Source of the DNA: Giardia intestinalis
Taxonomy: Eukaryota
Strand: one strand, 5' to 3'
DNA: 64,000 nt
Assembly (NCBI GenBank): GCA_000002435.2
Contig: CM018789.1
A program made the translations under genes and the position numbers. Positions 2,884 through 54,677 of this stretch are shown piece after piece. Each line of letters begins with the position of its first letter. The first letter of the stretch is position 1. The notes beneath the pieces are model-generated. The model was not told the DNA's origin and made no database searches. It saw only the letters and a list, made by a program, of their open reading frames with translations.

Positions 2884-5800
2884 TAATATTTTTATTCTGA
2901 GTCCTTTTGCCTGTCCTTTGTTGTATTTTCTGTTGTCCAAGAATTATCTCTTTGAGTTAAAACATGCAATATATTATGAAGTACTTGCATTATCAGCACG
3001 CGTGCCCCGGGCTGCCTGCATATGGATGCGCGCTTTCTGCCCGGCGAGTCTGCACAAGCAAGGAAAGCTAGACAGATTCCATCGTCCGCCTGCATGAACT
3101 GTGCATGTGCCCATGTCCTTCGAGCAAGAAGCCTGCAAGAGCTCCCTAGACATCACCGCACTCTCCGAGCATTGGACTGTGTACCCAAAAAGCAACAGTC
3201 CCTGCATGTTCGGCATACAGCTCCCCTGTTATCGTTTGGTCGTAGAGTAAAGGCAGATGACCCCGTCGATGATTCGTCCATCTGTCTGTTGCTTCCGGCC
3301 TTGTAGTGTTACAACTCCTGTATACGAGTGTGGACCGAAGCTCGTGCAGGCAAGCCTGCTCCATTTATCGTTTGTCCTATGACGAAGGCAGGTCGGTATG
3401 TGGATTAGAGACCATCGCCCCGGGCGGAGCTGGTATCTTCCAGTAGATTTCCCGCCTGTACAAGTTCTCGAGCAGAGAGCGAGCGCCCTGGCCACAACTG
3501 TGTAGAATGTTATCGAGGAAGGGTCCAGCAAAGAAGAACGGCTCTAGCGCGGCGCAAACTATGAGTGTGTCTAAGTACTGCAGGTTAGGACGATCTATCA
3601 CGGCATGATTGTTGGTGTCTGTTCTTTGTCTAAAGAGGAAACTCACCAAGAGCTGGGAGTCAGACACACACTTGTCAACTAGTGTAGGGTAGTAGACATA
3701 GTCATCATCATTCATCAGGTGGATTATTGCGATAAGAGCTGAGGAGGTATGAACAACATGCTCCCAGTTATCTACAGAGCAAACAGTTTTCCTCGCTTTC
3801 AGATTGCAGAAGCACTTCAGAGGGCTCTAGCAAGCATTGAAAAACTGTCACTCTTGAGATTGTGTTAATACCTATATGACAGCCAAGCTAGCAGACACGG
3901 CAGCGTTGATCAAACGAAGCTTTGGGAATGTGGCCACTCAGTACGATTATTGTTGTCAACCTACTTCTAATTGGCGGTGGTGCTTTTCCCAAGTCAAGCT
4001 AAAATGATTAAGAAAAAGACTAGTCACGAACAAATTATAGCCGAAGGCCACCCTGAGATGACGAGAAGGATACACGACTGAATAACGATAGAGACGCATA
4101 GTGTGGGGGACGAAGGTACTGTCTGAAGCTCCAAGAAGACCCATTAGAACCAGGGCATAAATTGGCGAGGAGTCCCACAGCTTAATCACCGACCTATCTC
4201 TGTCTTCGGATATATCGGTAGATAAAGCGTGTTTATCCTTAGGACTCTTGGCTTACGTCTGTAAGCGGGCTCTGGCAATTCAATATGCAAGGTTCTTTTC
4301 TAGCATGACATACTGTACCTCATGTGACGCTTAAGCATGGCCCCTTTTACGTCTCTTTAGGTCGCAACATCTGGACGGACCTGTGAACATGTGTACTAAG
4401 ATGTAGCATCAAGGCATCTTCGAGTCAAAGGCTGTATCTGTGTGAGATTGACGCAGCTTTTAAGAAAAGTGTCGGCACTCTTGCTAACTACCTAGCTAAA
4501 GGAAGAGGGCAACGACTACAAGCGATATGACAGCTCCTGTTTTTGGTATTGAACCCCGGTTAACGTTCTCTGTTAGTGATTTGCTACAAGGGAAGGCACC
4601 GGGACTTCTTCTAATACCACACTTGTTTGCTCTATGTTTATCTGGTCATCACAAAAGTCTGTTGATACGTATATTTAAGCTATAAGGTAGCGTCATGGTG
4701 TGTTGAACAACAAATTCATTGTCCATGCCAAGGTGAATGGCCTCCATCAATAGGCGTTCGCTCTGCTCTGTCGCCTCACTTATACGAAGAGAACTGTGCT
4801 CCGTCTGTGGTTTCTAAAGTCAAGGTCACTTTACAATTCAGCATCTTACTTCATGGTTTTTTAGATTACAGCCATTGTACTATGGTGCAGCAGAAGGAAC
4901 CGTATGCTATGTCACAGGGCCCCTGGTAACAGGGTGCTTTGGAATATCGTTATCTTGACCGTGTCCCGATACTAGATGGGCTCCAGTTTAACTATCTAAG
5001 CAACGCCTGCTCATATCATCTACCATTTATCTGCACATTCATTGAGGGGCCTGACTGGCACAATAAGGAATGCTTCCGTAGCAGTTGAGAGTGCACGTTA
5101 GCCTTGCTTAGCAAATACCTGGTGTGGAAACAACATAGACTCGAGGTGGATGCTTGTGGGGTAAAAGGGCCTGGAAAGATAGATAATAATATCTTCGAAT
5201 GTTTTATCTGCTGAATTGATTGCCAGTCCAAGAAGCTTGACATAGCGAAAGTCCCTCCATTCCCTTACTGTGTTCGTGGAAGTGACTATGTCTTCGACGT
5301 GACATAGGCCGAACTCCAGCTCTGTATCACATACATCGATAGGACAGACAGAGCATACACCAGAGATTTATCACAACACATAGTTTCAAGAGCTTGTAGA
5401 AATCGTCCTTGCGAGTTAGCTATTTCAACCTTCTACGCATTTAAAGAGACAGGCCACTTGTGTGGGGAGTCGGACACCAGCTATTGGTAAGATAACTGTA
5501 AAAGAAGCTATAGCGACTTCAATTGTAGTGATCTTGCTCAGAATTTTCTTGGATGCATAAGGTGCTTTACCTTTCCTTGAAACCATAGAAACCCATCGCT
5601 GAACTCCAAGCTAGATGGCTTCTGGCGCGGAATTCTATGTGATGATCATACATATGTAAATCGTCTATGGTAGGCTGGCGCGAACCAGAGCAAAAGCCAT
5701 GCTGTTTAGGCTCACGGTGCCAGTGATGATATAATCTACTGTATAAGCCGATCAACGGATTCTTTCACGGTGTTCTAGCCACAGGCGCCTGGAGTTATAG

Positions 5801-5892
5801 ATCTAAGCCTGAGCCGCAGCCGGAGAGCCCGTCACGCGAGACGAAGTAAAACTAAGGTCATACTTCACGGCAATTTACTTCATCCTGCAAAA

Positions 5893-8800
5893 TTATGTGC
5901 GCTTGCACAGGAACCACCACAGGAGAAAACTGACCAGGCCTGTGACAAGGAGGATTGCTGTTACGGATACCCCGGCTATCATGGCCGTCTTCCTTGCCGA
6001 GCTCGGGGCTGGGGCTGGAACCGGATCTGGGACTGGATCTGGGCCGGGCTTGGGCGTCGGAATGATGCTCGGGAGCGCATCAAAGGAGTAGCAGAGGACG
6101 GATCCGACCTTGCCCTCAGGAGGCATGCAGCAAGTGCATCCGTTGACCCCTTTCATGCCGTTGTTGTCCGCACCGCACGCTGTGCATGTGAACGCCGATC
6201 CAGTTGTCGACTGGTAGTACCCTGTGTCACAGAGGGTGCACATCTGCGGATTGTCCGGGGCAATGCAGGTGACGCAGCCCTGGGCGCATTTCTGGCACTG
6301 GCCGTCCACGCTCACATACCCCAGCTTGCACCTCACACAGGCGTCGGCCGTGCATTCGGCGCAGTTTGCGATCGAGCACTCTTGAAGGATGCCCGACTCG
6401 CTGACCATCTTTCCGTGCGCGCCCTTGGTGCACACGCCCCTCTCCTCTGCATGGCAGACGGTGCGTCCAGGATATGTGTCCACCTGGTAGCATCCTCCCG
6501 ACAGGAGGAAGTATCCGTCTGCACAACTCGTGCAGGCGCCGTCGACCACAGAGACGCACGCAGACCCTGCCCGTGCGGAGGGCCCGACGCATTTGCCGTT
6601 CAGAGGGAACGCGGTCTGCACGCTGCATACAGAGCAGTAGCTTGCCCCGTCGATGCTCGCGTCGCACCTCTTGCAGCCGTCGGCTGACGGGGTACACGGT
6701 TTCTTGCACTCCCCGACCCCCGATTCAGACGTTACCGCGTAGCCCGACGGGCAAGACACGCAGCTACTGGGGCCCTTAGCTACGCAGGTGGCGCACGTGC
6801 TGTCGCAAGGAGTGCAGACTCCGTTGTCGGAGAAGTACCCGTCCGAGCACACAGCGCAAAAATTACCGGCTCCACACTCTTTGCAGTTCGAGATCTCACA
6901 CAGAGCGCACCTTGCGGGGCTCTTCTCCGTGGCATCAAGTGCGTAGTGCCCGGGAATGCTTCTGCAGTTGTCCACGCAGGTCCCCACACTGGTGAGGAAG
7001 AACCCGGGTCCACAACGCCGACACTTCTTGCCCTCAGTACACTCGGCGCAATCTGGGACCGTGCATGAACCCATGGTCTTGGTGGTGCATGTGCCTGCCT
7101 GATCCAGAACGTACCCGACCATGCAGTGTGTGCACACCTCCCCCTGGTCATCCATCCTGCACCGCTCGCAGTTCACCGTGGTACAGGGGCGGCAGACGCC
7201 GTCTTGGTTCTCATAGCCGGCGGCACATGCATTGCAAAGACCAAGACCGTAGTTGTTTCCATTAACGTAACCAGGAACACCTGCCCAGGTACAGATGCTT
7301 TTTCCGGGCTCCTTGCTCTCCTGGTAGCAGCCGCCCATGTACAGGAAATACCCCGCACCACACTGAAGACAGCTCCGCGCTGAGTCAAAACCTACGCCAG
7401 TCACGCAGCCACTGGGGTGTGCGCTTGCCACGTTAGTGCAAATGCCGTCCACAGGCGCGTGTTCATCTGTTTTGCACAAGCTACAGTACAGCTTCTCGCC
7501 TATTCCCACCACGCACGAACCCGCCGCGCAATTGGGGTCCTCACAGTGGGACAGGCACTTGCCACCAACTAATACATAGCCAGCTTTGCAAGCGATGCAT
7601 CTAACCGAGTCACCTTTCGCGCTACATTCTCTACAACCATTAATCCCTTTAGGATTGGTTGTGTCTCCACATTCGATGCATTGGCCACGGTTATACCCAG
7701 TAAGAACAAAGAAGTGTGTCCGGAGGTGACAAGATGTGCAGTCATTCTCTTCCGAGCCTCTACATGTAGCGCACCCCTCGCTACAAGGAAGGCATTTGAG
7801 AGCGAAGGGGTGTCCATACATCCCATAGCCACATTGCCACGCATCTACGCAAACTCCGATGTTTTTATGTATGGGCGATAAGTATTTTTTAGGATGACAT
7901 GTGAGGCATTGCTCTGGACTTTCTCCTACGCATGTCTTACAGTCATTGTGGCATCGTTTGCAAAACCTCGGATCGTAGTATCCGTCGATGCAGGATTCGC
8001 ACGTGTTTGTGTCTTGAGCACACGTCTTACAGTACGGGTCCCGGCAGCGTACGCAAATACCTTTATCATTCCGAAATCCACTTGCACATGTCTTACATAA
8101 CCCAATTTCCTCGGGCTTGGTCCCGACTTCTACGCAAACAAAGTTCTTCTCTTCGAGCTCTACCTGATAACATCCTCCTTGGTGAAAGAAGAAACCTGGA
8201 CCACACTTTTCGCAGCGTCCTTTGCTGGCAATGCAGGCGCGTCGGTTATTGGGCGTGAGTTCGGAACACATACCGTTGAGGGGCGCATGTCCTTCTTTGC
8301 AGCGAGAGCAGAGAAGCTCATTCCTCCAAACGACGTCACAGGCGTCTGCCTCACAATACTCAGATGGATCATCACATTCTTTCCTGCATTGTCCATCAAT
8401 AAGTAAACGGTTCGACTCGCACTCTGTGCACTCAACCACCCCGGGGGTACTGGGACGAGTGCAAGCCTTGCAATTTGCTACTCCTTTCCATCCAGCGTGT
8501 CCCTGCTCGTCTCCACAGGAAACACACCTCCCCGTTCCATTCTCTGCTGCCAGAAAATAGCCCTCCGATTCATTGCAAGAGGTGCAATCTGTTTCATTAG
8601 GTCCTTCGCAGGTTTGACACGCACCAGAGCATTTTTTGCATTGTCGCAGCTGAGTAGGGGCTACGTAGAAGCCAACTCCACACTGAGAGACGCAAACACG
8701 CTTGGTTGTTCCCTTAAGATACCCGCGACCACAAACTGCACACGAATCATCAGCCGCACACCTAGGGCAGTCTGGGATCTCGCATCTGTAGCAAATGTCT

Positions 8801-9348
8801 CCGTTCGGATTAGGCTTGTGTGTCGAGAGCTTACACTTGACACATAGGGCCACGTCAGGACCCTTAGACTTAGACGGCGAGAGGCAATGCAGGCAACCGG
8901 CAACTCCTACAAAGTCCGCCACTCCTGTTGTGTCATCACACCGAACACACGAATCGACTGTTTGCGACGCTGCAGGGTTCCTAAAGAAACCAGACGTACA
9001 AGACTTGCAAACTCCTTTATCGCACTCGCTACATATAAGGTTCCCGGGGTAAAGATTACCGCACGCGTAGCAGCCTCCTTTGTATAGATACATGGAGTCT
9101 GTACACATCCCGCACCTCTTTTCGCTTACAATGGGTGTACCATCTGCACTCTTGCATGAAGAGTGTTGCTCGCTATCATACTTAATGCAGTGTCCGTTGA
9201 AGGGTATGTAGCCAGCATTCCTACACTCTGTGCACAGCTCGTGGCCGTTGATCTCCTCGCAACGGTCCTCTGCGCAATCGCTGACCTGGTTGGAGTGTGT
9301 ACACTTCGCTGCTTGAAAGGCGATCAGCAGACCAAGGACCGCAAGCAT
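5893..9348 (-). CDS. high-cysteine membrane protein (HCMP; VSP-like Cys-rich type I membrane protein without CRGKA tail)
   Basis: 1151 aa, ~12% Cys, many CXXC/CXC and GGCY motifs (KGGCYACG, QGGCYQVE, MGGCYQESK, SGGCYQVD), N-terminal signal peptide MLAVLGLLIAFQAA, Pro-rich stalk, single C-terminal TM (IAGVSVTAILLVTGLVSFLLWWFL) and short tail CKRT. Confidence 0.8.
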   Translation of the reverse strand: MLAVLGLLIAFQAAKCTHSNQVSDCAEDRCEEINGHELCTECRNAGYIPFNGHCIKYDSEQHSSCKSADGTPIVSEKRCGMCTDSMYLYKGGCYACGNLYPGNLICSECDKGVCKSCTSGFFRNPAASQTVDSCVRCDDTTGVADFVGVAGCLHCLSPSKSKGPDVALCVKCKLSTHKPNPNGDICYRCEIPDCPRCAADDSCAVCGRGYLKGTTKRVCVSQCGVGFYVAPTQLRQCKKCSGACQTCEGPNETDCTSCNESEGYFLAAENGTGRCVSCGDEQGHAGWKGVANCKACTRPSTPGVVECTECESNRLLIDGQCRKECDDPSEYCEADACDVVWRNELLCSRCKEGHAPLNGMCSELTPNNRRACIASKGRCEKCGPGFFFHQGGCYQVELEEKNFVCVEVGTKPEEIGLCKTCASGFRNDKGICVRCRDPYCKTCAQDTNTCESCIDGYYDPRFCKRCHNDCKTCVGESPEQCLTCHPKKYLSPIHKNIGVCVDAWQCGYGMYGHPFALKCLPCSEGCATCRGSEENDCTSCHLRTHFFVLTGYNRGQCIECGDTTNPKGINGCRECSAKGDSVRCIACKAGYVLVGGKCLSHCEDPNCAAGSCVVGIGEKLYCSLCKTDEHAPVDGICTNVASAHPSGCVTGVGFDSARSCLQCGAGYFLYMGGCYQESKEPGKSICTWAGVPGYVNGNNYGLGLCNACAAGYENQDGVCRPCTTVNCERCRMDDQGEVCTHCMVGYVLDQAGTCTTKTMGSCTVPDCAECTEGKKCRRCGPGFFLTSVGTCVDNCRSIPGHYALDATEKSPARCALCEISNCKECGAGNFCAVCSDGYFSDNGVCTPCDSTCATCVAKGPSSCVSCPSGYAVTSESGVGECKKPCTPSADGCKRCDASIDGASYCSVCSVQTAFPLNGKCVGPSARAGSACVSVVDGACTSCADGYFLLSGGCYQVDTYPGRTVCHAEERGVCTKGAHGKMVSESGILQECSIANCAECTADACVRCKLGYVSVDGQCQKCAQGCVTCIAPDNPQMCTLCDTGYYQSTTGSAFTCTACGADNNGMKGVNGCTCCMPPEGKVGSVLCYSFDALPSIIPTPKPGPDPVPDPVPAPAPSSARKTAMIAGVSVTAILLVTGLVSFLLWWFLCKRT

Positions 9349-9642
9349 TTAAATATAAACCAACGGAATATAATAAACTACATACTGCAAAAGTACAGAA
9401 CTAGGACTTTTGTCAGTAAAGTATACGCCACACCTCTGTCTGTAATTCTTGTGGGCAGTTGTTTGTAGAGAACAATTCTGAGATTTCCTCTTAAGATTGC
9501 AGGTAGGTCCAATCGGCGTTTCAGCTCACATCGCAGAAACCACCATATTATCTCCCTACGGTATGCTGCGTAGAATTGCTCGATTTATGACCATCAACCC
9601 TTAGATTTCTACTTACACTACATTTCGGCTTTCTCAGCGTTT

Positions 9643-10245
9643 ATGACGTTTTTATCGATTCTTGCAAAGGAAATAGGCAGTCCAGATTTGTGTGTCGAGC
9701 CTCGAGCATGCAGTTTGGATTTAACGTTGCAGAGGCCTTCGGACTCCGGCGGTCCTCCTTACAAATCAGTCACTAAGAAGTATGCCTCTCAGGCAGTAGA
9801 AGAAGATCAAAACCGTCTTGGACAGCGTGTAGGGCGATTTTCATGTAGCACAGGGTCTCCCAGCCTTGTAACTAGCCTGGCATTCATTCGCGATTCCCAC
9901 CACTTCTTGTTCTTAGCTGTCGATGAGGACCAGTGCCTCGGGATCCTGAAGGGAGGCATCAAGCATCTCTTTATGCTCGACAGCCAGAGCGAGACCCGCG
10001 AGATGGACGCGATGTGTTGCCTGGACTTCTACACCCATGAGACGGTGCAGCGCCGAGGGATCGGAACACGGCTCTTCCGCGCCATGGGGCTTCACACGCA
10101 TATCTCCGCTCAGGGCTGGGTTTTTGATCGACCCTCTCCGAAGTTGCTGGCCTTCCTCTCGAAGGTGTACGACATGCATGACTTCAAGGCCCAACCCAAC
10201 AACTTCCTCATGCTGGATGCATCCATTCGTCTTTGGGGGGGCTGA
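9643..10245 (+). CDS. ATAT1: alpha-tubulin N-acetyltransferase (MEC-17/alphaTAT1 family)
   Basis: Strong similarity to alphaTAT1 catalytic core: GIKHLFMLD...MCCLDFYTHETVQRRGIGTRLF...DRPSPKLLAFLSKVYDM...QPNNFLMLD matches human KKLFVLD...[22 protein letters not shown]...DRPSQKLLKFLNKHYNL...QVNNFVIF; divergent 295-bp promoter shared with HCMP. Confidence 0.75.
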   Translation: MTFLSILAKEIGSPDLCVEPRACSLDLTLQRPSDSGGPPYKSVTKKYASQAVEEDQNRLGQRVGRFSCSTGSPSLVTSLAFIRDSHHFLFLAVDEDQCLGILKGGIKHLFMLDSQSETREMDAMCCLDFYTHETVQRRGIGTRLFRAMGLHTHISAQGWVFDRPSPKLLAFLSKVYDMHDFKAQPNNFLMLDASIRLWGG

Positions 10246-10846
10246 GTTCAAGCAGTACAGGCGCAGCAAAAAGCACTATATTCCAGATGCATACCTACTT
10301 CCGGAGACCCGGGAAAGCGAGTATCTGGGCGAGGCGGAGCTTACCAAGAGGACGCTCATCAGGAAGTCAACAGCCGTCATTCCCCAAACTAAAACCACTC
10401 AATCAGAGGATGCGCCAGCTCGCGCCTTGACGGCAGATGAACTCCTGTCCAAGCGCTCTGTTGTTCTGCCCACAGCAAGCAGGACCCCTTCCCTTCCGAA
10501 TTAGCCCCAGTCCGTGGCAGTCGCATACATGAATAAACGTAAATGATAATGATTCACTTTACCCCTGGCTATGCCCAGTGCTGTGCTGCTGGAACCTACC
10601 TGTGGGCGTACTCAAGGACCTCACAGGTAAATTGTCGCTCAATTTTTGGCGATGTCCGGAGACGAGGGTTGGTCGTTGATGATATAACGAGAGAATCCTC
10701 TCCATTGATATATCCAGAGCCTGGTGCGCTCCTCTGCCGTTTCGCGGGCGTGTGCTCAGGCTGAGAGTGTGTGTCGGCCCTTTCGGGGTTCAGCTTACTT
10801 ACCCATCTGCGTCGTCCACCAGTGGCGCCTCTCCTTGGTCTGCCGC

Positions 10847-12950: not shown

Positions 12951-13174
12951 GCAGACCGACGTGCATACTCAGACTGAGCACACACCCGCGAAACAGTAGA
13001 GGAGCGCACCAGACTCTAGATGCATCACCGGAGAGGACTCTCTCATTATGTTATCCACGACCAACTCTTGCCTCCGGACGGCCAGGACTTGAACGAAAAT
13101 TTACTCGTGAGACTTTTGGACACACCATCAGGCGGACCTATCAGCACATCTACACAAGCTACGCACAGTAACGC

Positions 13175-40532: not shown

Positions 40533-40672
40533 ACTCCAGTGCAAGTCTTCCTACACCAGCCAATGATTAGTATCTCTCAGTGAAAATTGCTCTAGAATAT
40601 GTGTTTTTCCACAAAAGATATGGGAAATTTACAAATTTTAGAGCAGATTAAAATGATAGATAAAATAACTTT

Positions 40673-42334: not shown

Positions 42335-42412
42335 ACACGAGGCCGCTGAGTTGTAAATAACCATTTTAAATTCACTTCTTCGGCTGTGGCGACTTGTTTT
42401 TTTGAATTCGCC

Positions 42413-42877: not shown

Positions 42878-42879
42878 AC
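42873..42879 (+). promoter_or_regulatory. polyadenylation signal AGTAAAC overlapping RPS18 stop
   Basis: AGTRAAY consensus overlapping TAA. Confidence 0.5.
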
Positions 42880-42969
42880 GGGAGCTGGCTGCCGGCTGTG
42901 TCATTTACAGTATAGTGTTCTGGTCTAGCGCAGTTGGCTAGAGAGGCCTCCGGGTCTTCAATAGCACCC

Positions 42970-43995
42970 TCAGGTCGAGACCTGGATTCCTGATCTGTGT
43001 CGAATCTCATTTATTATATCTTGCACAGTACCTGTGTTCTGGCTCAACATTCCTAGTGCAGGGTGAGAAACTGGGGTTTGAACGATGCTATTGGGCACGT
43101 AACTCTTTCGCATAACCGAGGATGTCGTGTCTCCTGTGGAAGAGGATTTGTAGAGGTTTGGCTGTCTAGATGTGGCTGAATAGGTCAGTGCACTCAGGTT
43201 TGTTTGACCGCTCTCCACCACGTCATAAAGGTTCTGCACAGAGTTAGGTCTGTGGCTGTTTTGAGTACTCATATCTAACGAAATCATCCCAGGTCGTGCC
43301 GCCCGCTGGTTGTAAGCTGCAGGGTAAACATCGTTAGCTTCTGATGCATTGTGCTGAATCAAATTTGAGGGTCTAATTGTAGCTTGGTTGGGTGGGAAGG
43401 GGGCCGTGTGGGCAGAGAGGTTCGTGATAGACTTGTTGATACTATCTAATGAGCTTTCAAGGTTCCGTAATCGTACTTCTGCGTACGTCTGATCATAGAG
43501 AGACTTCTGGAACTCTATAAGCCTCATTGTTACCTTCTCGTTTATGATCTTCTCCAGTTGATCGTGAGATAGAATAATCATATTATGCGTTGGAAGCGCT
43601 TGCCCCAACTTAATGTCCGGGGTATCCTGTTCTGGCCCACAGCTCTGTACCGGAGTCGCACCCTGGGGGCGATCGCTGGCCGGAGATGTGCTACTCGATA
43701 CACCTCTGTGAATATTGGTTATAAGTACTTCTAATTTGTCTTCTAAAGCATGCAGACGAGCTTCTAATCCAGACCGCATTTGATTTATGCTCTCTACTGC
43801 ATCATGTATGTAATCGCTTGAGTCATGATGCAGCGCAGGCGTTTCTACAACCATTGGTGTTTGATAAGCAACGACATTTCCTACTGTAACCCCCTGGGGA
43901 AGAAAGTCGTTACTTATAAGAGTCACTGGAGAGTGCGCTGAGCCTGGCTGGTACGCAGACTCATCCAAATTAAGAGAGTCGTCAAAGTTGGACAT
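42970..43995 (-). CDS. hypothetical protein (341 aa, Ser/Thr/Asn/Gln-rich ends with central coiled coil)
   Basis: ATG-initiated ORF, no family recognised. Confidence 0.4.
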   Translation of the reverse strand: MSNFDDSLNLDESAYQPGSAHSPVTLISNDFLPQGVTVGNVVAYQTPMVVETPALHHDSSDYIHDAVESINQMRSGLEARLHALEDKLEVLITNIHRGVSSSTSPASDRPQGATPVQSCGPEQDTPDIKLGQALPTHNMIILSHDQLEKIINEKVTMRLIEFQKSLYDQTYAEVRLRNLESSLDSINKSITNLSAHTAPFPPNQATIRPSNLIQHNASEANDVYPAAYNQRAARPGMISLDMSTQNSHRPNSVQNLYDVVESGQTNLSALTYSATSRQPNLYKSSSTGDTTSSVMRKSYVPNSIVQTPVSHPALGMLSQNTGTVQDIINEIRHRSGIQVST

Positions 43996-44127
43996 TAAAT
44001 TTCAAATTATTCACAGTTAAAGTTTATTAGAGTTTGCTTGCACTCCAAAATAAGAGGGCTGGTCAAGGCTCCCCTAGCCGAGTTGCTAAAGAGAAAGATA
44101 GATGAGTGGTCGTTTATAATTAAGGAT

Positions 44128-46668: not shown

Positions 46669-49600
46669 GTAGTGCTGGTCTCTGGGTCCAGACCGGCTGC
46701 GATGTCTGTAACGCTCGGGCCCGTCGCACACAGGCAACGTTCTCGGCTCCCCTATCAAGGATGCCCTGTGGCAAGTAGCGGATGTCCGCCTCCTGAGGTC
46801 TAGCCAGAACATGCTAGGACCGGTGTCTACGCGTGCCCCGGGCTGCCTGCATATGGATGCGCGCTTTCTGCCCGGCGAGTCTGCACAAGCAAGGAAAGCT
46901 AGACAGATTCCATCGTCCGCCTGCATGAACTGTGCATGTGCCCATGTCCTTCGAGCAAGAAGCCTGCAAGAGCTCCCTAGACATCACCGCACTCTCCGAG
47001 CATTGGACTGTGTACCCAAAAAGCAACAGTCCCTGCATGTTCGGCATACAGCTCCCCTGTTATCGTTTGGTCGTAGAGTAAAGGCAGATGACCCCGTCGA
47101 TGATTCGTCCATCTGTCTGTTGCTTCCGGCCTTGTAGTGTTACAACTCCTGTATACGAGTGTGGACCGAAGCTCGTGCAGGCAAGCCTGCTCCATTTATC
47201 GTTTGTCCTATGACGAAGGCAGGTCGGTATGTGGATTAGAGACCATCGCCCCGGGCGGAGCTGGTATCTTCCAGTAGATTTCCCGCCTGTACAAGTTCTC
47301 GAGCAGAGAGCGAGCGCCCTGGCCACAACTGTGTAGAATGTTATCGAGGAAGGGTCCAGCAAAGAAGAACGGCTCTAGCGCGGCGCAAACTATGAGTGTG
47401 TCTAAGTACTGCAGGTTAGGACGATCTATCACGGCATGATTGTTGGTGTCTGTTCTTTGTCTAAAGAGGAAACTCACCAAGAGCTGGGAGTCAGACACAC
47501 ACTTGTCAACTAGTGTAGGGTAGTAGACATAGTCATCATCATTCATCAGGTGGATTATTGCGATAAGAGCTGAGGAGGTATGAACAACATGCTCCCAGTT
47601 ATCTACAGAGCAAACAGTTTTCCTCGCTTTCAGATTGCAGAAGCACTTCAGAGGGCTCTAGCAAGCATTGAAAAACTGTCACTCTTGAGATTGTGTTAAT
47701 ACCTATATGACAGCCAAGCTAGCAGACACGGCAGCGTTGATCAAACGAAGCTTTGGGAATGTGGCCACTCAGTACGATTATTGTTGTCAACCTACTTCTA
47801 ATTGGCGGTGGTGCTTTTCCCAAGTCAAGCTAAAATGATTAAGAAAAAGACTAGTCACGAACAAATTATAGCCGAAGGCCACCCTGAGATGACGAGAAGG
47901 ATACACGACTGAATAACGATAGAGACGCATAGTGTGGGGGACGAAGGTACTGTCTGAAGCTCCAAGAAGACCCATTAGAACCAGGGCATAAATTGGCGAG
48001 GAGTCCCACAGCTTAATCACCGACCTATCTCTGTCTTCGGATATATCGGTAGATAAAGCGTGTTTATCCTTAGGACTCTTGGCTTACGTCTGTAAGCGGG
48101 CTCTGGCAATTCAATATGCAAGGTTCTTTTCTAGCATGACATACTGTACCTCATGTGACGCTTAAGCATGGCCCCTTTTACGTCTCTTTAGGTCGCAACA
48201 TCTGGACGGACCTGTGAACATGTGTACTAAGATGTAGCATCAAGGCATCTTCGAGTCAAAGGCTGTATCTGTGTGAGATTGACGCAGCTTTTAAGAAAAG
48301 TGTCGGCACTCTTGCTAACTACCTAGCTAAAGGAAGAGGGCAACGACTACAAGCGATATGACAGCTCCTGTTTTTGGTATTGAACCCCGGTTAACGTTCT
48401 CTGTTAGTGATTTGCTACAAGGGAAGGCACCGGGACTTCTTCTAATACCACACTTGTTTGCTCTATGTTTATCTGGTCATCACAAAAGTCTGTTGATACG
48501 TATATTTAAGCTATAAGGTAGCGTCATGGTGTGTTGAACAACAAATTCATTGTCCATGCCAAGGTGAATGGCCTCCATCAATAGGCGTTCGCTCTGCTCT
48601 GTCGCCTCACTTATACGAAGAGAACTGTGCTCCGTCTGTGGTTTCTAAAGTCAAGGTCACTTTACAATTCAGCATCTTACTTCATGGTTTTTTAGATTAC
48701 AGCCATTGTACTATGGTGCAGCAGAAGGAACCGTATGCTATGTCACAGGGCCCCTGGTAACAGGGTGCTTTGGAATATCGTTATCTTGACCGTGTCCCGA
48801 TACTAGATGGGCTCCAGTTTAACTATCTAAGCAACGCCTGCTCATATCATCTACCATTTATCTGCACATTCATTGAGGGGCCTGACTGGCACAATAAGGA
48901 ATGCTTCCGTAGCAGTTGAGAGTGCACGTTAGCCTTGCTTAGCAAATACCTGGTGTGGAAACAACATAGACTCGAGGTGGATGCTTGTGGGGTAAAAGGG
49001 CCTGGAAAGATAGATAATAATATCTTCGAATGTTTTATCTGCTGAATTGATTGCCAGTCCAAGAAGCTTGACATAGCGAAAGTCCCTCCATTCCCTTACT
49101 GTGTTCGTGGAAGTGACTATGTCTTCGACGTGACATAGGCCGAACTCCAGCTCTGTATCACATACATCGATAGGACAGACAGAGCATACACCAGAGATTT
49201 ATCACAACACATAGTTTCAAGAGCTTGTAGAAATCGTCCTTGCGAGTTAGCTATTTCAACCTTCTACGCATTTAAAGAGACAGGCCACTTGTGTGGGGAG
49301 TCGGACACCAGCTATTGGTAAGATAACTGTAAAAGAAGCTATAGCGACTTCAATTGTAGTGATCTTGCTCAGAATTTTCTTGGATGCATAAGGTGCTTTA
49401 CCTTTCCTTGAAACCATAGAAACCCATCGCTGAACTCCAAGCTAGATGGCTTCTGGCGCGGAATTCTATGTGATGATCATACATATGTAAATCGTCTATG
49501 GTAGGCTGGCGCGAACCAGAGCAAAAGCCATGCTGTTTAGGCTCACGGTGCCAGTGATGATATAATCTACTGTATAAGCCGATCAACGGATTCTTTCACG

Positions 49601-49723
49601 GTGTTCTAGCCACAGGCGCCTGGAGTTATAGATCTAAGCCTGAGCCGCAGCCGGAGAGCCCGTCACGCGAGACGAAGTAAAACTAAGGTCATACTTCACG
49701 GCAATTTACTTCATCCTGCAAAA

Positions 49724-52700
49724 TTATGTGCGCTTGCACAGGAACCACCACAGGAGAAAACTGACCAGGCCTGTGACAAGGAGGATTGCTGTTACGGATA
49801 CCCCGGCTATCATGGCCGTCTTCCTTGCCGAGCTCGGGGCTGGGGCTGGAACCGGATCTGGGACTGGATCTGGGCCGGGCTTGGGCGTCGGAATGATGCT
49901 CGGGAGCGCATCAAAGGAGTAGCAGAGGACGGATCCGACCTTGCCCTCAGGAGGCATGCAGCAAGTGCATCCGTTGACCCCTTTCATGCCGTTGTTGTCC
50001 GCACCGCACGCTGTGCATGTGAACGCCGATCCAGTTGTCGACTGGTAGTACCCTGTGTCACAGAGGGTGCACATCTGCGGATTGTCCGGGGCAATGCAGG
50101 TGACGCAGCCCTGGGCGCATTTCTGGCACTGGCCGTCCACGCTCACATACCCCAGCTTGCACCTCACACAGGCGTCGGCCGTGCATTCGGCGCAGTTTGC
50201 GATCGAGCACTCTTGAAGGATGCCCGACTCGCTGACCATCTTTCCGTGCGCGCCCTTGGTGCACACGCCCCTCTCCTCTGCATGGCAGACGGTGCGTCCA
50301 GGATATGTGTCCACCTGGTAGCATCCTCCCGACAGGAGGAAGTATCCGTCTGCACAACTCGTGCAGGCGCCGTCGACCACAGAGACGCACGCAGACCCTG
50401 CCCGTGCGGAGGGCCCGACGCATTTGCCGTTCAGAGGGAACGCGGTCTGCACGCTGCATACAGAGCAGTAGCTTGCCCCGTCGATGCTCGCGTCGCACCT
50501 CTTGCAGCCGTCGGCTGACGGGGTACACGGTTTCTTGCACTCCCCGACCCCCGATTCAGACGTTACCGCGTAGCCCGACGGGCAAGACACGCAGCTACTG
50601 GGGCCCTTAGCTACGCAGGTGGCGCACGTGCTGTCGCAAGGAGTGCAGACTCCGTTGTCGGAGAAGTACCCGTCCGAGCACACAGCGCAAAAATTACCGG
50701 CTCCACACTCTTTGCAGTTCGAGATCTCACACAGAGCGCACCTTGCGGGGCTCTTCTCCGTGGCATCAAGTGCGTAGTGCCCGGGAATGCTTCTGCAGTT
50801 GTCCACGCAGGTCCCCACACTGGTGAGGAAGAACCCGGGTCCACAACGCCGACACTTCTTGCCCTCAGTACACTCGGCGCAATCTGGGACCGTGCATGAA
50901 CCCATGGTCTTGGTGGTGCATGTGCCTGCCTGATCCAGAACGTACCCGACCATGCAGTGTGTGCACACCTCCCCCTGGTCATCCATCCTGCACCGCTCGC
51001 AGTTCACCGTGGTACAGGGGCGGCAGACGCCGTCTTGGTTCTCATAGCCGGCGGCACATGCATTGCAAAGACCAAGACCGTAGTTGTTTCCATTAACGTA
51101 ACCAGGAACACCTGCCCAGGTACAGATGCTTTTTCCGGGCTCCTTGCTCTCCTGGTAGCAGCCGCCCATGTACAGGAAATACCCCGCACCACACTGAAGA
51201 CAGCTCCGCGCTGAGTCAAAACCTACGCCAGTCACGCAGCCACTGGGGTGTGCGCTTGCCACGTTAGTGCAAATGCCGTCCACAGGCGCGTGTTCATCTG
51301 TTTTGCACAAGCTACAGTACAGCTTCTCGCCTATTCCCACCACGCACGAACCCGCCGCGCAATTGGGGTCCTCACAGTGGGACAGGCACTTGCCACCAAC
51401 TAATACATAGCCAGCTTTGCAAGCGATGCATCTAACCGAGTCACCTTTCGCGCTACATTCTCTACAACCATTAATCCCTTTAGGATTGGTTGTGTCTCCA
51501 CATTCGATGCATTGGCCACGGTTATACCCAGTAAGAACAAAGAAGTGTGTCCGGAGGTGACAAGATGTGCAGTCATTCTCTTCCGAGCCTCTACATGTAG
51601 CGCACCCCTCGCTACAAGGAAGGCATTTGAGAGCGAAGGGGTGTCCATACATCCCATAGCCACATTGCCACGCATCTACGCAAACTCCGATGTTTTTATG
51701 TATGGGCGATAAGTATTTTTTAGGATGACATGTGAGGCATTGCTCTGGACTTTCTCCTACGCATGTCTTACAGTCATTGTGGCATCGTTTGCAAAACCTC
51801 GGATCGTAGTATCCGTCGATGCAGGATTCGCACGTGTTTGTGTCTTGAGCACACGTCTTACAGTACGGGTCCCGGCAGCGTACGCAAATACCTTTATCAT
51901 TCCGAAATCCACTTGCACATGTCTTACATAACCCAATTTCCTCGGGCTTGGTCCCGACTTCTACGCAAACAAAGTTCTTCTCTTCGAGCTCTACCTGATA
52001 ACATCCTCCTTGGTGAAAGAAGAAACCTGGACCACACTTTTCGCAGCGTCCTTTGCTGGCAATGCAGGCGCGTCGGTTATTGGGCGTGAGTTCGGAACAC
52101 ATACCGTTGAGGGGCGCATGTCCTTCTTTGCAGCGAGAGCAGAGAAGCTCATTCCTCCAAACGACGTCACAGGCGTCTGCCTCACAATACTCAGATGGAT
52201 CATCACATTCTTTCCTGCATTGTCCATCAATAAGTAAACGGTTCGACTCGCACTCTGTGCACTCAACCACCCCGGGGGTACTGGGACGAGTGCAAGCCTT
52301 GCAATTTGCTACTCCTTTCCATCCAGCGTGTCCCTGCTCGTCTCCACAGGAAACACACCTCCCCGTTCCATTCTCTGCTGCCAGAAAATAGCCCTCCGAT
52401 TCATTGCAAGAGGTGCAATCTGTTTCATTAGGTCCTTCGCAGGTTTGACACGCACCAGAGCATTTTTTGCATTGTCGCAGCTGAGTAGGGGCTACGTAGA
52501 AGCCAACTCCACACTGAGAGACGCAAACACGCTTGGTTGTTCCCTTAAGATACCCGCGACCACAAACTGCACACGAATCATCAGCCGCACACCTAGGGCA
52601 GTCTGGGATCTCGCATCTGTAGCAAATGTCTCCGTTCGGATTAGGCTTGTGTGTCGAGAGCTTACACTTGACACATAGGGCCACGTCAGGACCCTTAGAC

Positions 52701-53179
52701 TTAGACGGCGAGAGGCAATGCAGGCAACCGGCAACTCCTACAAAGTCCGCCACTCCTGTTGTGTCATCACACCGAACACACGAATCGACTGTTTGCGACG
52801 CTGCAGGGTTCCTAAAGAAACCAGACGTACAAGACTTGCAAACTCCTTTATCGCACTCGCTACATATAAGGTTCCCGGGGTAAAGATTACCGCACGCGTA
52901 GCAGCCTCCTTTGTATAGATACATGGAGTCTGTACACATCCCGCACCTCTTTTCGCTTACAATGGGTGTACCATCTGCACTCTTGCATGAAGAGTGTTGC
53001 TCGCTATCATACTTAATGCAGTGTCCGTTGAAGGGTATGTAGCCAGCATTCCTACACTCTGTGCACAGCTCGTGGCCGTTGATCTCCTCGCAACGGTCCT
53101 CTGCGCAATCGCTGACCTGGTTGGAGTGTGTACACTTCGCTGCTTGAAAGGCGATCAGCAGACCAAGGACCGCAAGCAT
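49724..53179 (-). CDS. high-cysteine membrane protein (identical to 5893..9348 product)
   Basis: 1151-aa translation identical to copy 1. Confidence 0.8.
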   Translation of the reverse strand: MLAVLGLLIAFQAAKCTHSNQVSDCAEDRCEEINGHELCTECRNAGYIPFNGHCIKYDSEQHSSCKSADGTPIVSEKRCGMCTDSMYLYKGGCYACGNLYPGNLICSECDKGVCKSCTSGFFRNPAASQTVDSCVRCDDTTGVADFVGVAGCLHCLSPSKSKGPDVALCVKCKLSTHKPNPNGDICYRCEIPDCPRCAADDSCAVCGRGYLKGTTKRVCVSQCGVGFYVAPTQLRQCKKCSGACQTCEGPNETDCTSCNESEGYFLAAENGTGRCVSCGDEQGHAGWKGVANCKACTRPSTPGVVECTECESNRLLIDGQCRKECDDPSEYCEADACDVVWRNELLCSRCKEGHAPLNGMCSELTPNNRRACIASKGRCEKCGPGFFFHQGGCYQVELEEKNFVCVEVGTKPEEIGLCKTCASGFRNDKGICVRCRDPYCKTCAQDTNTCESCIDGYYDPRFCKRCHNDCKTCVGESPEQCLTCHPKKYLSPIHKNIGVCVDAWQCGYGMYGHPFALKCLPCSEGCATCRGSEENDCTSCHLRTHFFVLTGYNRGQCIECGDTTNPKGINGCRECSAKGDSVRCIACKAGYVLVGGKCLSHCEDPNCAAGSCVVGIGEKLYCSLCKTDEHAPVDGICTNVASAHPSGCVTGVGFDSARSCLQCGAGYFLYMGGCYQESKEPGKSICTWAGVPGYVNGNNYGLGLCNACAAGYENQDGVCRPCTTVNCERCRMDDQGEVCTHCMVGYVLDQAGTCTTKTMGSCTVPDCAECTEGKKCRRCGPGFFLTSVGTCVDNCRSIPGHYALDATEKSPARCALCEISNCKECGAGNFCAVCSDGYFSDNGVCTPCDSTCATCVAKGPSSCVSCPSGYAVTSESGVGECKKPCTPSADGCKRCDASIDGASYCSVCSVQTAFPLNGKCVGPSARAGSACVSVVDGACTSCADGYFLLSGGCYQVDTYPGRTVCHAEERGVCTKGAHGKMVSESGILQECSIANCAECTADACVRCKLGYVSVDGQCQKCAQGCVTCIAPDNPQMCTLCDTGYYQSTTGSAFTCTACGADNNGMKGVNGCTCCMPPEGKVGSVLCYSFDALPSIIPTPKPGPDPVPDPVPAPAPSSARKTAMIAGVSVTAILLVTGLVSFLLWWFLCKRT

Positions 53180-53473
53180 TTAAATATAAACCAACGGAAT
53201 ATAATAAACTACATACTGCAAAAGTACAGAACTAGGACTTTTGTCAGTAAAGTATACGCCACACCTCTGTCTGTAATTCTTGTGGGCAGTTGTTTGTAGA
53301 GAACAATTCTGAGATTTCCTCTTAAGATTGCAGGTAGGTCCAATCGGCGTTTCAGCTCACATCGCAGAAACCACCATATTATCTCCCTACGGTATGCTGC
53401 GTAGAATTGCTCGATTTATGACCATCAACCCTTAGATTTCTACTTACACTACATTTCGGCTTTCTCAGCGTTT

Positions 53474-54076
53474 ATGACGTTTTTATCGATTCTTGCAAAG
53501 GAAATAGGCAGTCCAGATTTGTGTGTCGAGCCTCGAGCATGCAGTTTGGATTTAACGTTGCAGAGGCCTTCGGACTCCGGCGGTCCTCCTTACAAATCAG
53601 TCACTAAGAAGTATGCCTCTCAGGCAGTAGAAGAAGATCAAAACCGTCTTGGACAGCGTGTAGGGCGATTTTCATGTAGCACAGGGTCTCCCAGCCTTGT
53701 AACTAGCCTGGCATTCATTCGCGATTCCCACCACTTCTTGTTCTTAGCTGTCGATGAGGACCAGTGCCTCGGGATCCTGAAGGGAGGCATCAAGCATCTC
53801 TTTATGCTCGACAGCCAGAGCGAGACCCGCGAGATGGACGCGATGTGTTGCCTGGACTTCTACACCCATGAGACGGTGCAGCGCCGAGGGATCGGAACAC
53901 GGCTCTTCCGCGCCATGGGGCTTCACACGCATATCTCCGCTCAGGGCTGGGTTTTTGATCGACCCTCTCCGAAGTTGCTGGCCTTCCTCTCGAAGGTGTA
54001 CGACATGCATGACTTCAAGGCCCAACCCAACAACTTCCTCATGCTGGATGCATCCATTCGTCTTTGGGGGGGCTGA
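53474..54076 (+). CDS. ATAT1: alpha-tubulin N-acetyltransferase (copy 2)
   Basis: 200-aa translation identical to 9643..10245. Confidence 0.75.
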   Translation: MTFLSILAKEIGSPDLCVEPRACSLDLTLQRPSDSGGPPYKSVTKKYASQAVEEDQNRLGQRVGRFSCSTGSPSLVTSLAFIRDSHHFLFLAVDEDQCLGILKGGIKHLFMLDSQSETREMDAMCCLDFYTHETVQRRGIGTRLFRAMGLHTHISAQGWVFDRPSPKLLAFLSKVYDMHDFKAQPNNFLMLDASIRLWGG

Positions 54077-54677
54077 GTTCAAGCAGTACAGGCGCAGCAA
54101 AAAGCACTATATTCCAGATGCATACCTACTTCCGGAGACCCGGGAAAGCGAGTATCTGGGCGAGGCGGAGCTTACCAAGAGGACGCTCATCAGGAAGTCA
54201 ACAGCCGTCATTCCCCAAACTAAAACCACTCAATCAGAGGATGCGCCAGCTCGCGCCTTGACGGCAGATGAACTCCTGTCCAAGCGCTCTGTTGTTCTGC
54301 CCACAGCAAGCAGGACCCCTTCCCTTCCGAATTAGCCCCAGTCCGTGGCAGTCGCATACATGAATAAACGTAAATGATAATGATTCACTTTACCCCTGGC
54401 TATGCCCAGTGCTGTGCTGCTGGAACCTACCTGTGGGCGTACTCAAGGACCTCACAGGTAAATTGTCGCTCAATTTTTGGCGATGTCCGGAGACGAGGGT
54501 TGGTCGTTGATGATATAACGAGAGAATCCTCTCCATTGATATATCCAGAGCCTGGTGCGCTCCTCTGCCGTTTCGCGGGCGTGTGCTCAGGCTGAGAGTG
54601 TGTGTCGGCCCTTTCGGGGTTCAGCTTACTTACCCATCTGCGTCGTCCACCAGTGGCGCCTCTCCTTGGTCTGCCGT

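What the first reader, a model, noticed from the sequence alone, without database searches (positions are those of the whole stretch)
2998..54677. Perfect 7.85-kb direct repeats 43.8 kb apart, bracketing the housekeeping gene block
Intervals 2998-10846 and 46829-54677 give identical translations in every frame. Each contains a 2.9-kb ORF-free segment, an HCMP gene and an alpha-TAT gene. Both repeat edges fall in intergenic DNA: 115 bp upstream of the MGCGSS-protein gene in copy 1, and 161 bp past the LRR gene stop in copy 2. Identity this high over 7.8 kb implies a very recent segmental duplication or gene conversion. It also makes the intervening 36 kb a substrate for deletion or circle formation by homologous recombination.
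Basis: seen in the sequence. Interest (0 to 1): 0.65.

Follow-up and report, generated by a model that had tools for sequence, protein, structure and literature searches.

The report
Giardia surface-protein gene block, triplicated

Summary
The window is Giardia intestinalis WB, from the 2020 chromosome-scale reference. Its three HCMP proteins exactly equal GenBank KAE8301681/KAE8301702 and KAE8301703.

The repeat is real. 2998-10845 equals 46829-54676 (7,848 bp, no difference), and the first mismatch is at 10846/54677.

With copy 2 it forms a 5.2-kb-arm palindrome.

Short-read contigs from many independent runs stop exactly k-1 bases into the repeat at both left edges. This includes isolates about 1% diverged. 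So the duplication is not a mis-assembly, and it predates that divergence.

The right edge (10845/6) lies inside older homology that exists in two sequence types. It is therefore a recombination endpoint. The adjacent 2.2 kb is only about 95-97% identical between loci, and its central spacer is flipped. A fourth HCMP paralogue elsewhere in the genome has a 280-residue N-terminus identical to these copies, while its counterpart in isolate DH does not.

Best reading: an old duplicated HCMP module homogenised by gene conversion.

The "alpha-TAT gene" is a decayed, frameshifted, 3'-truncated copy in all three repeats.

Novelty is low: the assembly paper reports that 6.9% of the genome is duplicated.

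The parts
2998..10845 (+). Direct repeat copy 1, the perfect tract (X1 + HCMP1 + decayed alpha-TAT 1)
   Evidence: Identical base for base to 46829-54676. Contigs from the MGCGSS-gene flank end at 3027 = 2998+29 in many SRA runs.
46829..54676 (+). Direct repeat copy 2, the perfect tract (X2 + HCMP2 + decayed alpha-TAT 2)
   Evidence: Contigs of the unique block end at 46858 (k=31), and one ENA contig assembled at k=141 ends at 46969. Other contigs run from X through 46829 into the LRR-like gene at 100% identity.
56488..61677 (-). Copy 3: the inverted arm (HCMP3 + decayed alpha-TAT 3 + alpha-type inner end). It lacks X.
   Evidence: BLAST: 49728-54895 vs 61677-56488 at 99.1%, and 5897-13111 vs 61677-54451 at 98.3%. 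Only 4 substitutions against copy 1 between 5924 and 10845.
2998..5892 (.). X1: a 2.9-kb ORF-free segment, present only in copies 1 and 2 (X2 = 46829-49723)
   Evidence: Longest ORF is 112 aa. No Pfam hit in six frames. No similarity to HCMP, VSP or the P15 neighbour gene. No homologue in the P15 locus.
5893..9348 (-). [quoted passage not shown]
   Evidence: Exact match to P0019. Pfam VSP, E = 3e-103.
49724..53179 (-). HCMP2, 1151 aa = KAE8301702.1, identical to HCMP1
58226..61759 (+). HCMP3, 1177 aa = KAE8301703.1. It has 3 substitutions and a diverged, read-through C-terminal tail.
   Evidence: Exact match to P0020. Differences are M759T, P923L, V932A and the tail. Pfam VSP.
9708..10540 (+). 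Decayed alpha-TAT/MEC-17 gene, copy 1 (200-aa ORF at 9643-10245). Copy 2 is at 53539-54371 (+) and copy 3 at 57034-57866 (-).
   Evidence: tblastn of intact 362-aa orthologues needs frames 3, 2, 1, 2 in turn. There are in-frame stops, an extra G in the G7 run at 10234-10240, and homology ends at residue ~281. Pfam PF05301 matches the core.
10846..11088 (+). Alpha-type inner end of the arm at locus 1. Its alpha-type partner at locus 2 is 56488-56728 (-).
   Evidence: Four-way alignment A1. About 99% identical between the loci.
54677..54895 (+). Beta-type inner end of the arm at locus 2. Its beta-type partner at locus 1 is 12664-12884 (-).
   Evidence: Alignment A1. Alpha and beta types are about 86% identical.
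11089..12663 (+). Y1: a GC-rich (61%) non-coding spacer between the inverted ends at locus 1
   Evidence: Matches 56487-54896 in inverted orientation at about 95-100% locally. Its ORFs have no Pfam hit and are absent from the protein collection.
54896..56487 (-). Y2: the same spacer at locus 2, flipped relative to X-HCMP
12885..13170 (-). Decayed remnant (~70% identity) of a lost inverted arm at locus 1, abutting the VSP gene
   Evidence: Alignment A1, columns 1-260. 71% identity over 12901-13111.
13204..46668 (.). Unique block between the direct copies: one VSP gene plus 20 mostly housekeeping genes (NUDIX, EF-1 beta, kinases, PheRS beta, cysteine protease, eIF3 subunit, RRS1, CCT subunit, ribosomal protein S13, LRR-like)
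   Evidence: ORF list. Pfam labels. Assembled as a single ~29-kb contig in many short-read runs.

Best explanation
This is a genuine, previously published segmental-duplication cluster in the Giardia intestinalis WB genome. It is built around a head-to-head module of a high-cysteine membrane protein (HCMP) gene and a decayed alpha-tubulin acetyltransferase gene.

The window holds three copies.
- Locus 1 is X-HCMP-psiTAT-alpha-Y-beta, followed by a stub of a lost inverted arm.
- Locus 2 lies 43.8 kb downstream. It is X-HCMP-psiTAT-beta-(Y flipped)-alpha-psiTAT-HCMP, a palindrome with 5.2-kb arms and a 1.6-kb spacer.

The duplication itself is old. It predates the split between WB-like isolates and isolates about 1% diverged.

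The perfect 7,848-bp identity is the footprint of recent non-allelic gene conversion, that is, concerted evolution between the copies. Its left edge (2998/46829) is the original duplication junction, beyond which no homology exists to carry conversion further. Its right edge (10845/6) is a conversion or crossover endpoint inside older homology.

The flipped spacer is explained by recombination between the inverted arms.

Shown: the anatomy, the independent support for the junctions, the mosaic identity, and the conversion of a fourth paralogue. Inferred: the order of events and the mechanism (gene conversion and flip-flop inversion).
For: Identity of the source: the HCMP proteins equal KAE8301681.1/KAE8301702.1 and KAE8301703.1 of strain ATCC 50803. 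Neighbouring genes equal KAE8301680, KAE8301683 and KAE8301700.

The junctions are real.
- Contigs from at least 24 runs end at 3027 = 2998+29.
- Contigs of the unique block end at 46858, or at 46969 for a k=141 assembly.
- Both junctions are seen in the same run, SRR17450161 (L003 and L019).
- Ten contigs are 100% identical across all of X and cross 46829 into the LRR-like gene.

The duplication is old.
- Contigs at 98.9-99.0% identity (L014, L015, L017) break at the same base.
- In isolate DH, the accession order ESU35331...ESU35348...ESU35350 on one 41-kb contig puts an HCMP after the LRR-like gene, as in WB copy 2.

Identity is mosaic.
- 0 differences in 7,848 bp between copies 1 and 2.
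- Copy 1 vs copy 3: 4 substitutions in 4,922 bp, then 99.4%, 97.2%, 95.2%, 97.0% and 71% in successive segments.
- The four inner arm ends fall into two types, and the switch occurs exactly at 10846.

Conversion is active in this family. The fourth paralogue P0001 (KAE8301925.1) is 100% identical to HCMP1 over residues 1-280 and 56-82% identical over residues 300-650. Its DH counterpart P0002 is only 56-80% identical to HCMP1 in residues 1-250.

Literature: 6.9% of the WB genome is duplicated, with multi-gene duplications up to 20 kb and inverted VSP pairs (PMC7000408). Identical inverted vsp pairs have abrupt divergence points (PMC2996952).
Against: I could not read raw long reads or read depth, so copy number rests on graph topology and on the published assembly.

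Short-read polishing of a long-read assembly can homogenise near-identical repeats. Some of the 'perfection' could therefore be technical. The unbroken 100%-identical contigs across X in 10 runs argue against this.

Logan contigs are not strict unitigs: some cross the 46829 junction. The k-1 argument is therefore an inference about assembler behaviour.

A faster mutation rate in the GC-rich spacer Y could mimic part of the identity contrast.

The presence of locus 1 in DH or other diverged isolates was not shown directly.
Confidence: 0.8

Rival explanations
1. A single, very recent segmental duplication copied about 8-10 kb once, and there has been no time for mutations. No gene conversion is needed.
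For: Zero differences in 7,848 bp. An abrupt left boundary with no flanking similarity.
Against: The same boundary is a branch point in isolates about 1% diverged. DH appears to carry the copy-2 HCMP. The adjacent homologous 2.2 kb is 3-5% diverged between the loci and is flipped. The right edge sits inside two-type older homology. A paralogue elsewhere shows a conversion tract.
Confidence: 0.1
2. Assembly artefact: a single-copy or differently arranged region was duplicated or mis-joined by the long-read assembler, and polishing made the copies identical.
For: The repeats are longer than many PacBio RSII reads. The 2007 Sanger assembly seems to have arranged the same genes differently, judging by the accession order XP_001707057...065...068.
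Against: Two different unique flanks are joined to the first 30 or more bases of X in independent Illumina assemblies, including within one run. The 2007 annotation already held three identical copies of the 200-aa ORF. The assembly was checked against optical maps (PMC7000408).
Confidence: 0.04
3. The X-HCMP unit is, or was moved by, a mobile element such as a retrotransposon or DNA transposon.
For: X is a 2.9-kb non-coding orphan segment that travels with the HCMP gene. Reverse-transcriptase remnants lie between some inverted VSP pairs in this genome (PMC7000408).
Against: No reverse transcriptase, transposase or any other Pfam domain in six frames of X or in the ORFs of Y. No target-site duplication or terminal inverted repeat at the unit ends. 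The right ends of the copies differ.
Confidence: 0.04

Closest known systems
Multi-gene segmental duplications of the Giardia WB chromosome-scale assembly (Xu, Jex & Svard 2020, PMC7000408)
   Same: It is the same genome and the same sequence. That paper reports that 6.9% of the genome is duplicated, that there are multi-gene duplications up to 20 kb, that members of cysteine-rich gene families are frequent in them, and that duplicated genes are given separate IDs. The identical proteins KAE8301681 and KAE8301702 are already deposited.
   Different: The paper gives only aggregate statistics and a table of VSP pairs. In the text I read, it does not describe this HCMP triplication, the flipped spacer, the conversion endpoints or the decayed alpha-TAT copies.
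Inverted pairs of identical vsp genes in Giardia (Adam et al. 2010, PMC2996952; vsp1267 pair)
   Same: Copies 2 and 3 are a head-to-head inverted pair of near-identical cysteine-rich surface-protein genes. Their flanks stay identical up to a sharp divergence point, as described for 14 vsp pairs.
   Different: The genes here are HCMPs, with a CKRT tail rather than CRGKA. The intervening DNA is 5.0 kb and contains two decayed genes, rather than 2-4 kb of non-coding DNA. There is also a perfect direct copy 43.8 kb away, whereas Adam et al. found no identical vsp genes outside inverted pairs.
Low-copy repeats and palindromes kept identical by non-allelic gene conversion, such as the human Y-chromosome palindromes (general knowledge, not tested here)
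   Same: Kilobase-scale arms at 99-100% identity, flanked by older and more diverged homology. The spacer orientation can flip by recombination between the arms. The repeats are potential substrates for deletion, duplication and inversion.
   Different: The organism is tetraploid and binucleate, and its meiosis is undemonstrated. No rearranged products were observed here.
Intra-isolate structural variants in Giardia AWB (Pollo et al. 2020, PMC7048089)
   Same: That study predicts 392 structural variants in WB (45 duplications, 46 deletions, 162 inversions) that affect VSP and HCMP genes. These are the kinds of products this repeat architecture would generate.
   Different: I could not check whether any of those calls lies at this locus.

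Membership tests
Segmental duplication / low-copy repeat | Two or more copies of at least 1 kb at 90% identity or more, at separate genomic positions | tested here: met
   7,848 bp at 100% and 8,087 aligned bp at 99.6% (direct copies). 7,232 aligned bp at 98.3% (inverted copy).
Segmental duplication / low-copy repeat | Each copy is joined to a different unique flank in data independent of the assembly | tested here: met
   MGCGSS-gene flank joined to X: contigs end at 3027. LRR-gene flank joined to X: contigs end at 46858/46969 or read through. The outer junction of copy 3 (61677) was not tested independently.
Concerted evolution by gene conversion | Mosaic identity: perfect tracts whose ends lie inside older, more diverged homology | tested here: met
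   The switch from the shared sequence to the alpha/beta types occurs at 10846. Stepwise identity of 99.9, 99.4, 97.2, 95.2 and 71%.
Concerted evolution by gene conversion | Paralogues within a strain are more alike than orthologues between strains over part of their length | tested here: met
   WB P0001 equals WB HCMP1 over residues 1-280. The DH orthologue P0002 is 56-80% identical there, yet about 100% identical to P0001 over residues 300-650.
Giardia inverted identical gene pair (Adam 2010; Xu 2020) | Two identical or near-identical cysteine-rich protein ORFs in head-to-head or tail-to-tail orientation, a few kb apart | tested here: met
   HCMP2 (-) and HCMP3 (+) are head to head, with 5,046 bp between their start codons and 3 substitutions plus the tail. 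The spacing is larger than the 2.2-3.8 kb reported for vsp pairs.
[quoted passage not shown] | VSP-family cysteine-rich ectodomain, a C-terminal transmembrane helix, and a short tail that is not CRGKA | tested here: met
   Pfam PF03302, E = 3e-103. The C-terminus reads ...LLWWFLCKRT. [quoted passage not shown]
Alpha-tubulin N-acetyltransferase (MEC-17/ATAT1, PF05301) | Significant match to the family profile | tested here: met
   E = 6e-32, profile positions 35-169 of 173.
Alpha-tubulin N-acetyltransferase (MEC-17/ATAT1, PF05301) | Intact reading frame collinear with functional orthologues, including the N-terminal ~55 residues with the conserved GRGSQxAQGLP segment | tested here: not met
   Against the 362-aa orthologues P0063 and P0065, the WB locus needs three frame changes, has at least three in-frame stops, and lacks the last 81 codons. 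Whether the 200-aa ORF retains activity cannot be tested here.
Transposable element | Element-encoded enzyme domain, defined termini (inverted or long terminal repeats, or a poly-A tail), and a target-site duplication | tested here: not met
   No Pfam domain in X or in the Y ORFs. No target-site duplication or terminal inverted repeat.
Assembly artefact | Junctions unsupported outside the assembly | tested here: not met
   Read depth and long-read spanning cannot be tested with these tools.

The most novel reading that the evidence does not exclude
Every MEC-17/alpha-TAT homologue of the model strain WB may be a disabled copy riding in this HCMP repeat family. There are three in this window, plus probably a fourth copy with the same 200-aa ORF.

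Intact 362-aa orthologues exist in assemblage E (P15) and other Giardia. WB-derived cells nevertheless have mostly acetylated tubulin (PMC11738946). If no intact copy exists, Lys40 acetylation in WB would be made either by the N-terminally replaced 200-aa remnant or by an unrelated enzyme.

Separately, the direct and inverted copies may be actively recombining within cultures. This would give inversion of the ~43-kb block, a 43.8-kb deletion or circle, or flipping of the spacer.
Probability: 0.2. Interest if true: 0.55.

Novelty: already known. Interest (0 to 1): 0.22.

Why it matters
For genome biology the result is mostly confirmatory. It shows at base resolution how one of the published WB duplications is built. 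It also shows that the perfect identity reflects ongoing gene conversion among dispersed HCMP loci rather than a fresh duplication.

There are practical consequences.
- Reads, RNA-seq and CRISPR guides for HCMP1/2/3 and the 200-aa ORF cannot be assigned to a single locus.
- Short-read assemblies will always break here.
- The repeat pair is a candidate site for structural polymorphism affecting about 20 housekeeping genes.

The side observation on alpha-TAT could matter more. It raises the question of which enzyme acetylates tubulin in the standard laboratory strain.

Tried and rejected
- Prokaryotic or viral origin. I considered this because of the dense genes on both strands. I rejected it once the VSP CRGKA tail and the Pfam VSP domain appeared.
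- X as a dead retrotransposon or decayed gene. Six-frame Pfam found nothing. tblastn with HCMP, VSP and the P15 neighbour gene (CFAP65-like) found nothing. Sensitive blastn found no other copy in the window.
- Y as rDNA or another RNA. Rfam found only one tRNA in the whole window.
- Homology continuing beyond the copy-3 outer edge into X. Only 64 bp of diverged HCMP 3' coding sequence matches.
- Exact look-ups of HCMP1 and P0001 in the contig index returned nothing. The protein-cluster look-up gave the accessions instead.
- A literature search for the gene ID GL50803_117393 returned only noise. The HCMP expression paper does not mention duplicates.
- Two Pfam calls on raw DNA references failed because of stop codons.
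- I could not decide whether the L005-type arrangement (full alpha-TAT 3' end followed by an HCMP 3' fragment) is the fourth WB locus or an alternative haplotype of copy 3.
Full report
**Observation**

The two intervals are identical from 2998 to 10845 and from 46829 to 54676. That is 7,848 bp without a single difference. The first mismatch is at 10846 (C) against 54677 (T).

To the left of 2998/46829 the sequences are unrelated. The stated distances to the neighbouring genes are correct: 115 bp from the ATG of the MGCGSS protein gene at 2883, and 161 bp past the stop of the LRR-like gene at 46668.

- The direct similarity continues at lower identity to 11082/54895.
- There is a third, inverted copy: 5897-13111 matches 61677-54451 at 98.3%.
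- Copy 2 (49728-54895) and copy 3 (61677-56488) are inverted arms at 99.1% identity, separated by about 1.6 kb.
- The window also holds a 13-copy, 294-bp tandem array inside a VSP gene.

**Source**

One large ORF ends in CRGKA. The 1151-aa ORFs match the Pfam Giardia VSP family at E = 3e-103.

The 1151-aa protein is exactly GenBank KAE8301681.1 and KAE8301702.1. The 1177-aa protein of copy 3 is exactly KAE8301703.1. [quoted passage not shown] Neighbouring genes match KAE8301680 (MGCGSS protein, GL50803_002107), KAE8301683 (NUDIX) and KAE8301700.

The window is therefore part of the 2020 chromosome-scale WB reference. The paper describing it states three relevant things (PMC7000408).
- 6.9% of the genome is duplicated.
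- Multi-gene duplications of up to 20 kb were resolved.
- Cysteine-rich gene families are common in the duplications, and 38 VSPs sit in inverted pairs.

Adam et al. 2010 had already described 14 inverted pairs of identical vsp genes whose flanks stay identical up to an abrupt divergence point (PMC2996952).

**Anatomy**

A three-way alignment and a four-way alignment of the inner arm ends give the following segments.
- **X** (2998-5896) occurs only in copies 1 and 2. It has no ORF above 112 aa, no Pfam match in six frames, and no similarity to anything else tested.
- **The core** (5897-10845) occurs in all three copies. It carries the HCMP gene on the minus strand and the 200-aa Mec-17-domain ORF on the plus strand, head to head. 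Copy 3 differs from copy 1 by only four substitutions between 5924 and 10845. It also has a cluster of nine changes at 5899-5923, which remove the stop codon and give HCMP3 a longer tail.
- **The inner arm ends** come in two sequence types. The alpha type is 10846-11088 and the reverse complement of 56488-56728. The beta type is 54677-54895 and the reverse complement of 12664-12884. The two types are about 86% identical to each other and differ by indels.
- **Y** is a 1.6-kb GC-rich spacer lying between an alpha end and a beta end at both loci.

Locus 1 reads X-core-alpha-Y-beta, followed by about 260 bp of a roughly 70%-identical remnant of an inverted arm (12885-13170), and then the VSP gene. 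Locus 2 reads X-core-beta-(Y inverted)-alpha-core(inverted).

The alpha-Y-beta centre is thus flipped between the loci relative to X-core. This is what recombination between inverted arms produces.

**Is it an assembly artefact?**

I used exact-protein look-ups to pull short-read contigs from independent public runs.
- Contigs carrying the MGCGSS gene end at window position 3027, which is 2998+29. This holds in four runs (L010-L013) and in a 52.7-kb contig shared by 20 or more runs (L018, L019).
- Contigs of the unique ~29-kb block end at 46858, which is 46829+29. L016 does so at 100% identity and L015 and L017 at about 99%. L001-L003 do so by coordinate arithmetic.
- A k=141 ENA assembly ends at 46969, which is 46829+140.

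Stopping k-1 bases into a repeat is the behaviour expected of a de Bruijn assembler where two paths merge. That the Logan assemblies use k=31 is my inference from the 29-30-base overlap.

Run SRR17450161 shows both ends (L003, L019). Ten further contigs are 100% identical to all 2.9 kb of X and read through 46829 into the LRR-like gene. X is therefore physically joined to two different flanks in many independent data sets, and the mis-assembly reading is unlikely.

The 2007 Sanger annotation also already contained three identical copies of the 200-aa ORF.

**Recent duplication or gene conversion?**

Four observations point to an old duplication that has since been homogenised.
1. The copy-2 boundary is a branch point at the same base in isolates about 1% diverged from WB (L014, L015, L017). 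In isolate DH (sub-assemblage AII), the accession order on one 41-kb contig (ESU35331 NUDIX, ESU35348, ESU35350 HCMP) mirrors WB (KAE8301683, KAE8301700, KAE8301702). So an HCMP already sat after the LRR-like gene.
2. The right edge of the perfect tract is not a duplication junction. At 10846 copy 2 switches from the shared sequence to the beta type, while copy 1 continues with the alpha type.
3. Identity between locus 1 and the copy-3 side of locus 2 falls stepwise: 99.9% in the core, then 99.4%, 97.2%, 95.2% and 97.0%, and finally 71% in the arm remnant. X and the core show no differences at all between copies 1 and 2.
4. A fourth paralogue elsewhere in the genome is a mosaic. P0001 (KAE8301925.1, 1144 aa, on a 1,539,535-bp record) is 100% identical to HCMP1 over residues 1-280 and 56-82% identical over residues 300-650. 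Its DH counterpart P0002 equals it in the middle but is only 56-80% identical to HCMP1 in the first 250 residues. This is a conversion tract acquired in the WB lineage. Short-read contigs that start at 8467 and end at 10541-10665 fit such an extra copy of that stretch.

**Ancestry (partly inferred)**

In assemblage E (P15), an HCMP (-) and an intact 362-aa MEC-17-like gene (+) sit head to head. Homology to WB runs exactly from the HCMP stop to alpha-TAT residue ~281 (window 5904-10541). X has no counterpart there.

Downstream of the P15 alpha-TAT lies an HCMP 3' fragment plus flank. These match window 61483-62150, which is the 3' end of copy 3 and its unique right flank.

In a more distant Giardia (L025) the order is tRNA, then an ankyrin/kinase gene, then HCMP(-), then intact alpha-TAT(+). 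Its tRNA and the 3' part of the kinase gene match window 63079-63306 and 62041-62192. Copy 3 with its right flank therefore looks like the ancestral position, and copies 1 and 2 with X look derived.

All three WB copies share the same truncation of alpha-TAT at 10541, so they descend from one founder or were converted from one.

I could not decide whether an assemblage-A contig with the full alpha-TAT 3' end (L005) is the fourth WB locus or an alternative haplotype.

**The 'alpha-TAT gene'**

The 200-aa ORF hits Pfam PF05301. Measured against intact orthologues (P0063 from P15, and P0065), the WB locus is broken in several ways.
- The ancestral ATG is at 9708, in another frame.
- A stretch in a second frame carries two stops.
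- The core is in a third frame.
- An extra G in a G7 run (10234-10240) ends the ORF.
- The tail has a further stop.
- The last 81 codons are missing.

The same ORF occurs in Sanger, PacBio and Illumina data, so this is not a sequencing error.

By accession order, no protein appears to be annotated for it in the 2020 release. A search with an intact query found no other MEC-17 protein from WB, DH or GS. Yet most tubulin in WB-derived cells is reported to be acetylated (PMC11738946). This is an open lead, not a conclusion.

**Consequences**

The 36-kb interval holds one VSP gene and about 20 genes. Several are presumably essential, including PheRS beta, a CCT subunit, ribosomal protein S13, EF-1 beta, an eIF3 subunit and RRS1.

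Recombination between the direct copies would delete or duplicate 43.8 kb. Recombination between copy 1 and copy 3 would invert the block. Loss of the block from all four chromosome copies should be lethal, although a heterozygous variant might be tolerated.

Widespread intra-isolate structural variants affecting VSP and HCMP genes have been predicted in WB (PMC7048089). I have no evidence for any at this locus.

**Verdict**

The feature belongs to a kind already published for this very genome, so novelty and interest are low.

Noticed in passing
window 9643-10540 (+), 53474-54371 (+), 57034-57931 (-): All three Mec-17/alpha-TAT ORFs are decayed relative to intact 362-aa orthologues (P15 'MEC-17-like' protein; P0065). 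They need three frame changes, carry in-frame stops, have an extra G in a G7 run at 10234-10240, and lack the last 81 codons. No other MEC-17 protein of WB, DH or GS was found, although WB-derived cells have mostly acetylated tubulin (PMC11738946).
   Followed up: partly
outside the window: P0001 = KAE8301925.1 (1144 aa); L005:1-2724: A fourth HCMP paralogue in WB is a mosaic: residues 1-280 are identical to HCMP1 and the middle is 56-82% identical. An assemblage-A contig (L005) carries the same 200-aa ORF but a complete alpha-TAT 3' end followed by an HCMP 3' fragment, collinear with the P15 locus. Whether L005 is that fourth locus or an alternative haplotype of copy 3 is unresolved.
   Followed up: partly
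window 13204-18069 (-), array 14167-17990: A VSP gene (signal peptide MFDKLIFVSLALQLAWA, CRGKA tail) contains 13.0 copies of a 294-bp (98-aa) tandem repeat at about 99.9% identity. Short-read assemblies collapse it (L001). Pfam 'BmKX' and 'Thiolase_C' hits on the repeats look spurious.
   Followed up: no
window 61760-64000: The right flank of copy 3 has no convincing ORF. 62041-62192 resembles the 3' part of an ankyrin/kinase (NEK-like) gene that is intact at the syntenic place in a distant Giardia (L025), so it may be a decayed NEK gene. One tRNA lies at 63087-63169 (-). ARAGORN calls it Ile(GAT), but its L025 homologue is called Ser(TGA). From about 63200 onward the sequence carries long, arginine-rich ORFs with no Pfam match (for example 63135-63980, minus strand).
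   Followed up: partly
window 5938 / 49769: All ten short-read contigs covering X stop at 5938 (= 49769). This is 15 bases short of where the copy-3 divergence (last mismatch at 5923) would predict, which hints at yet another sequence elsewhere in the genome sharing the HCMP 3' end from about 5909.
   Followed up: no
window 10665 / 54496 / 56909: Two WB-identical short-read contigs (L006, L007) end at 10665, although the three window copies stay identical to 10845. Another contig (L005) diverges after 10466-10541. This indicates additional partial copies or allelic variants outside the window.
   Followed up: no
window 104-1807 (+): This ORF is the C-terminal part of a 1338-aa uDENN/DENN-domain gene that runs off the left end of the window (seen complete in L018).
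   Followed up: no
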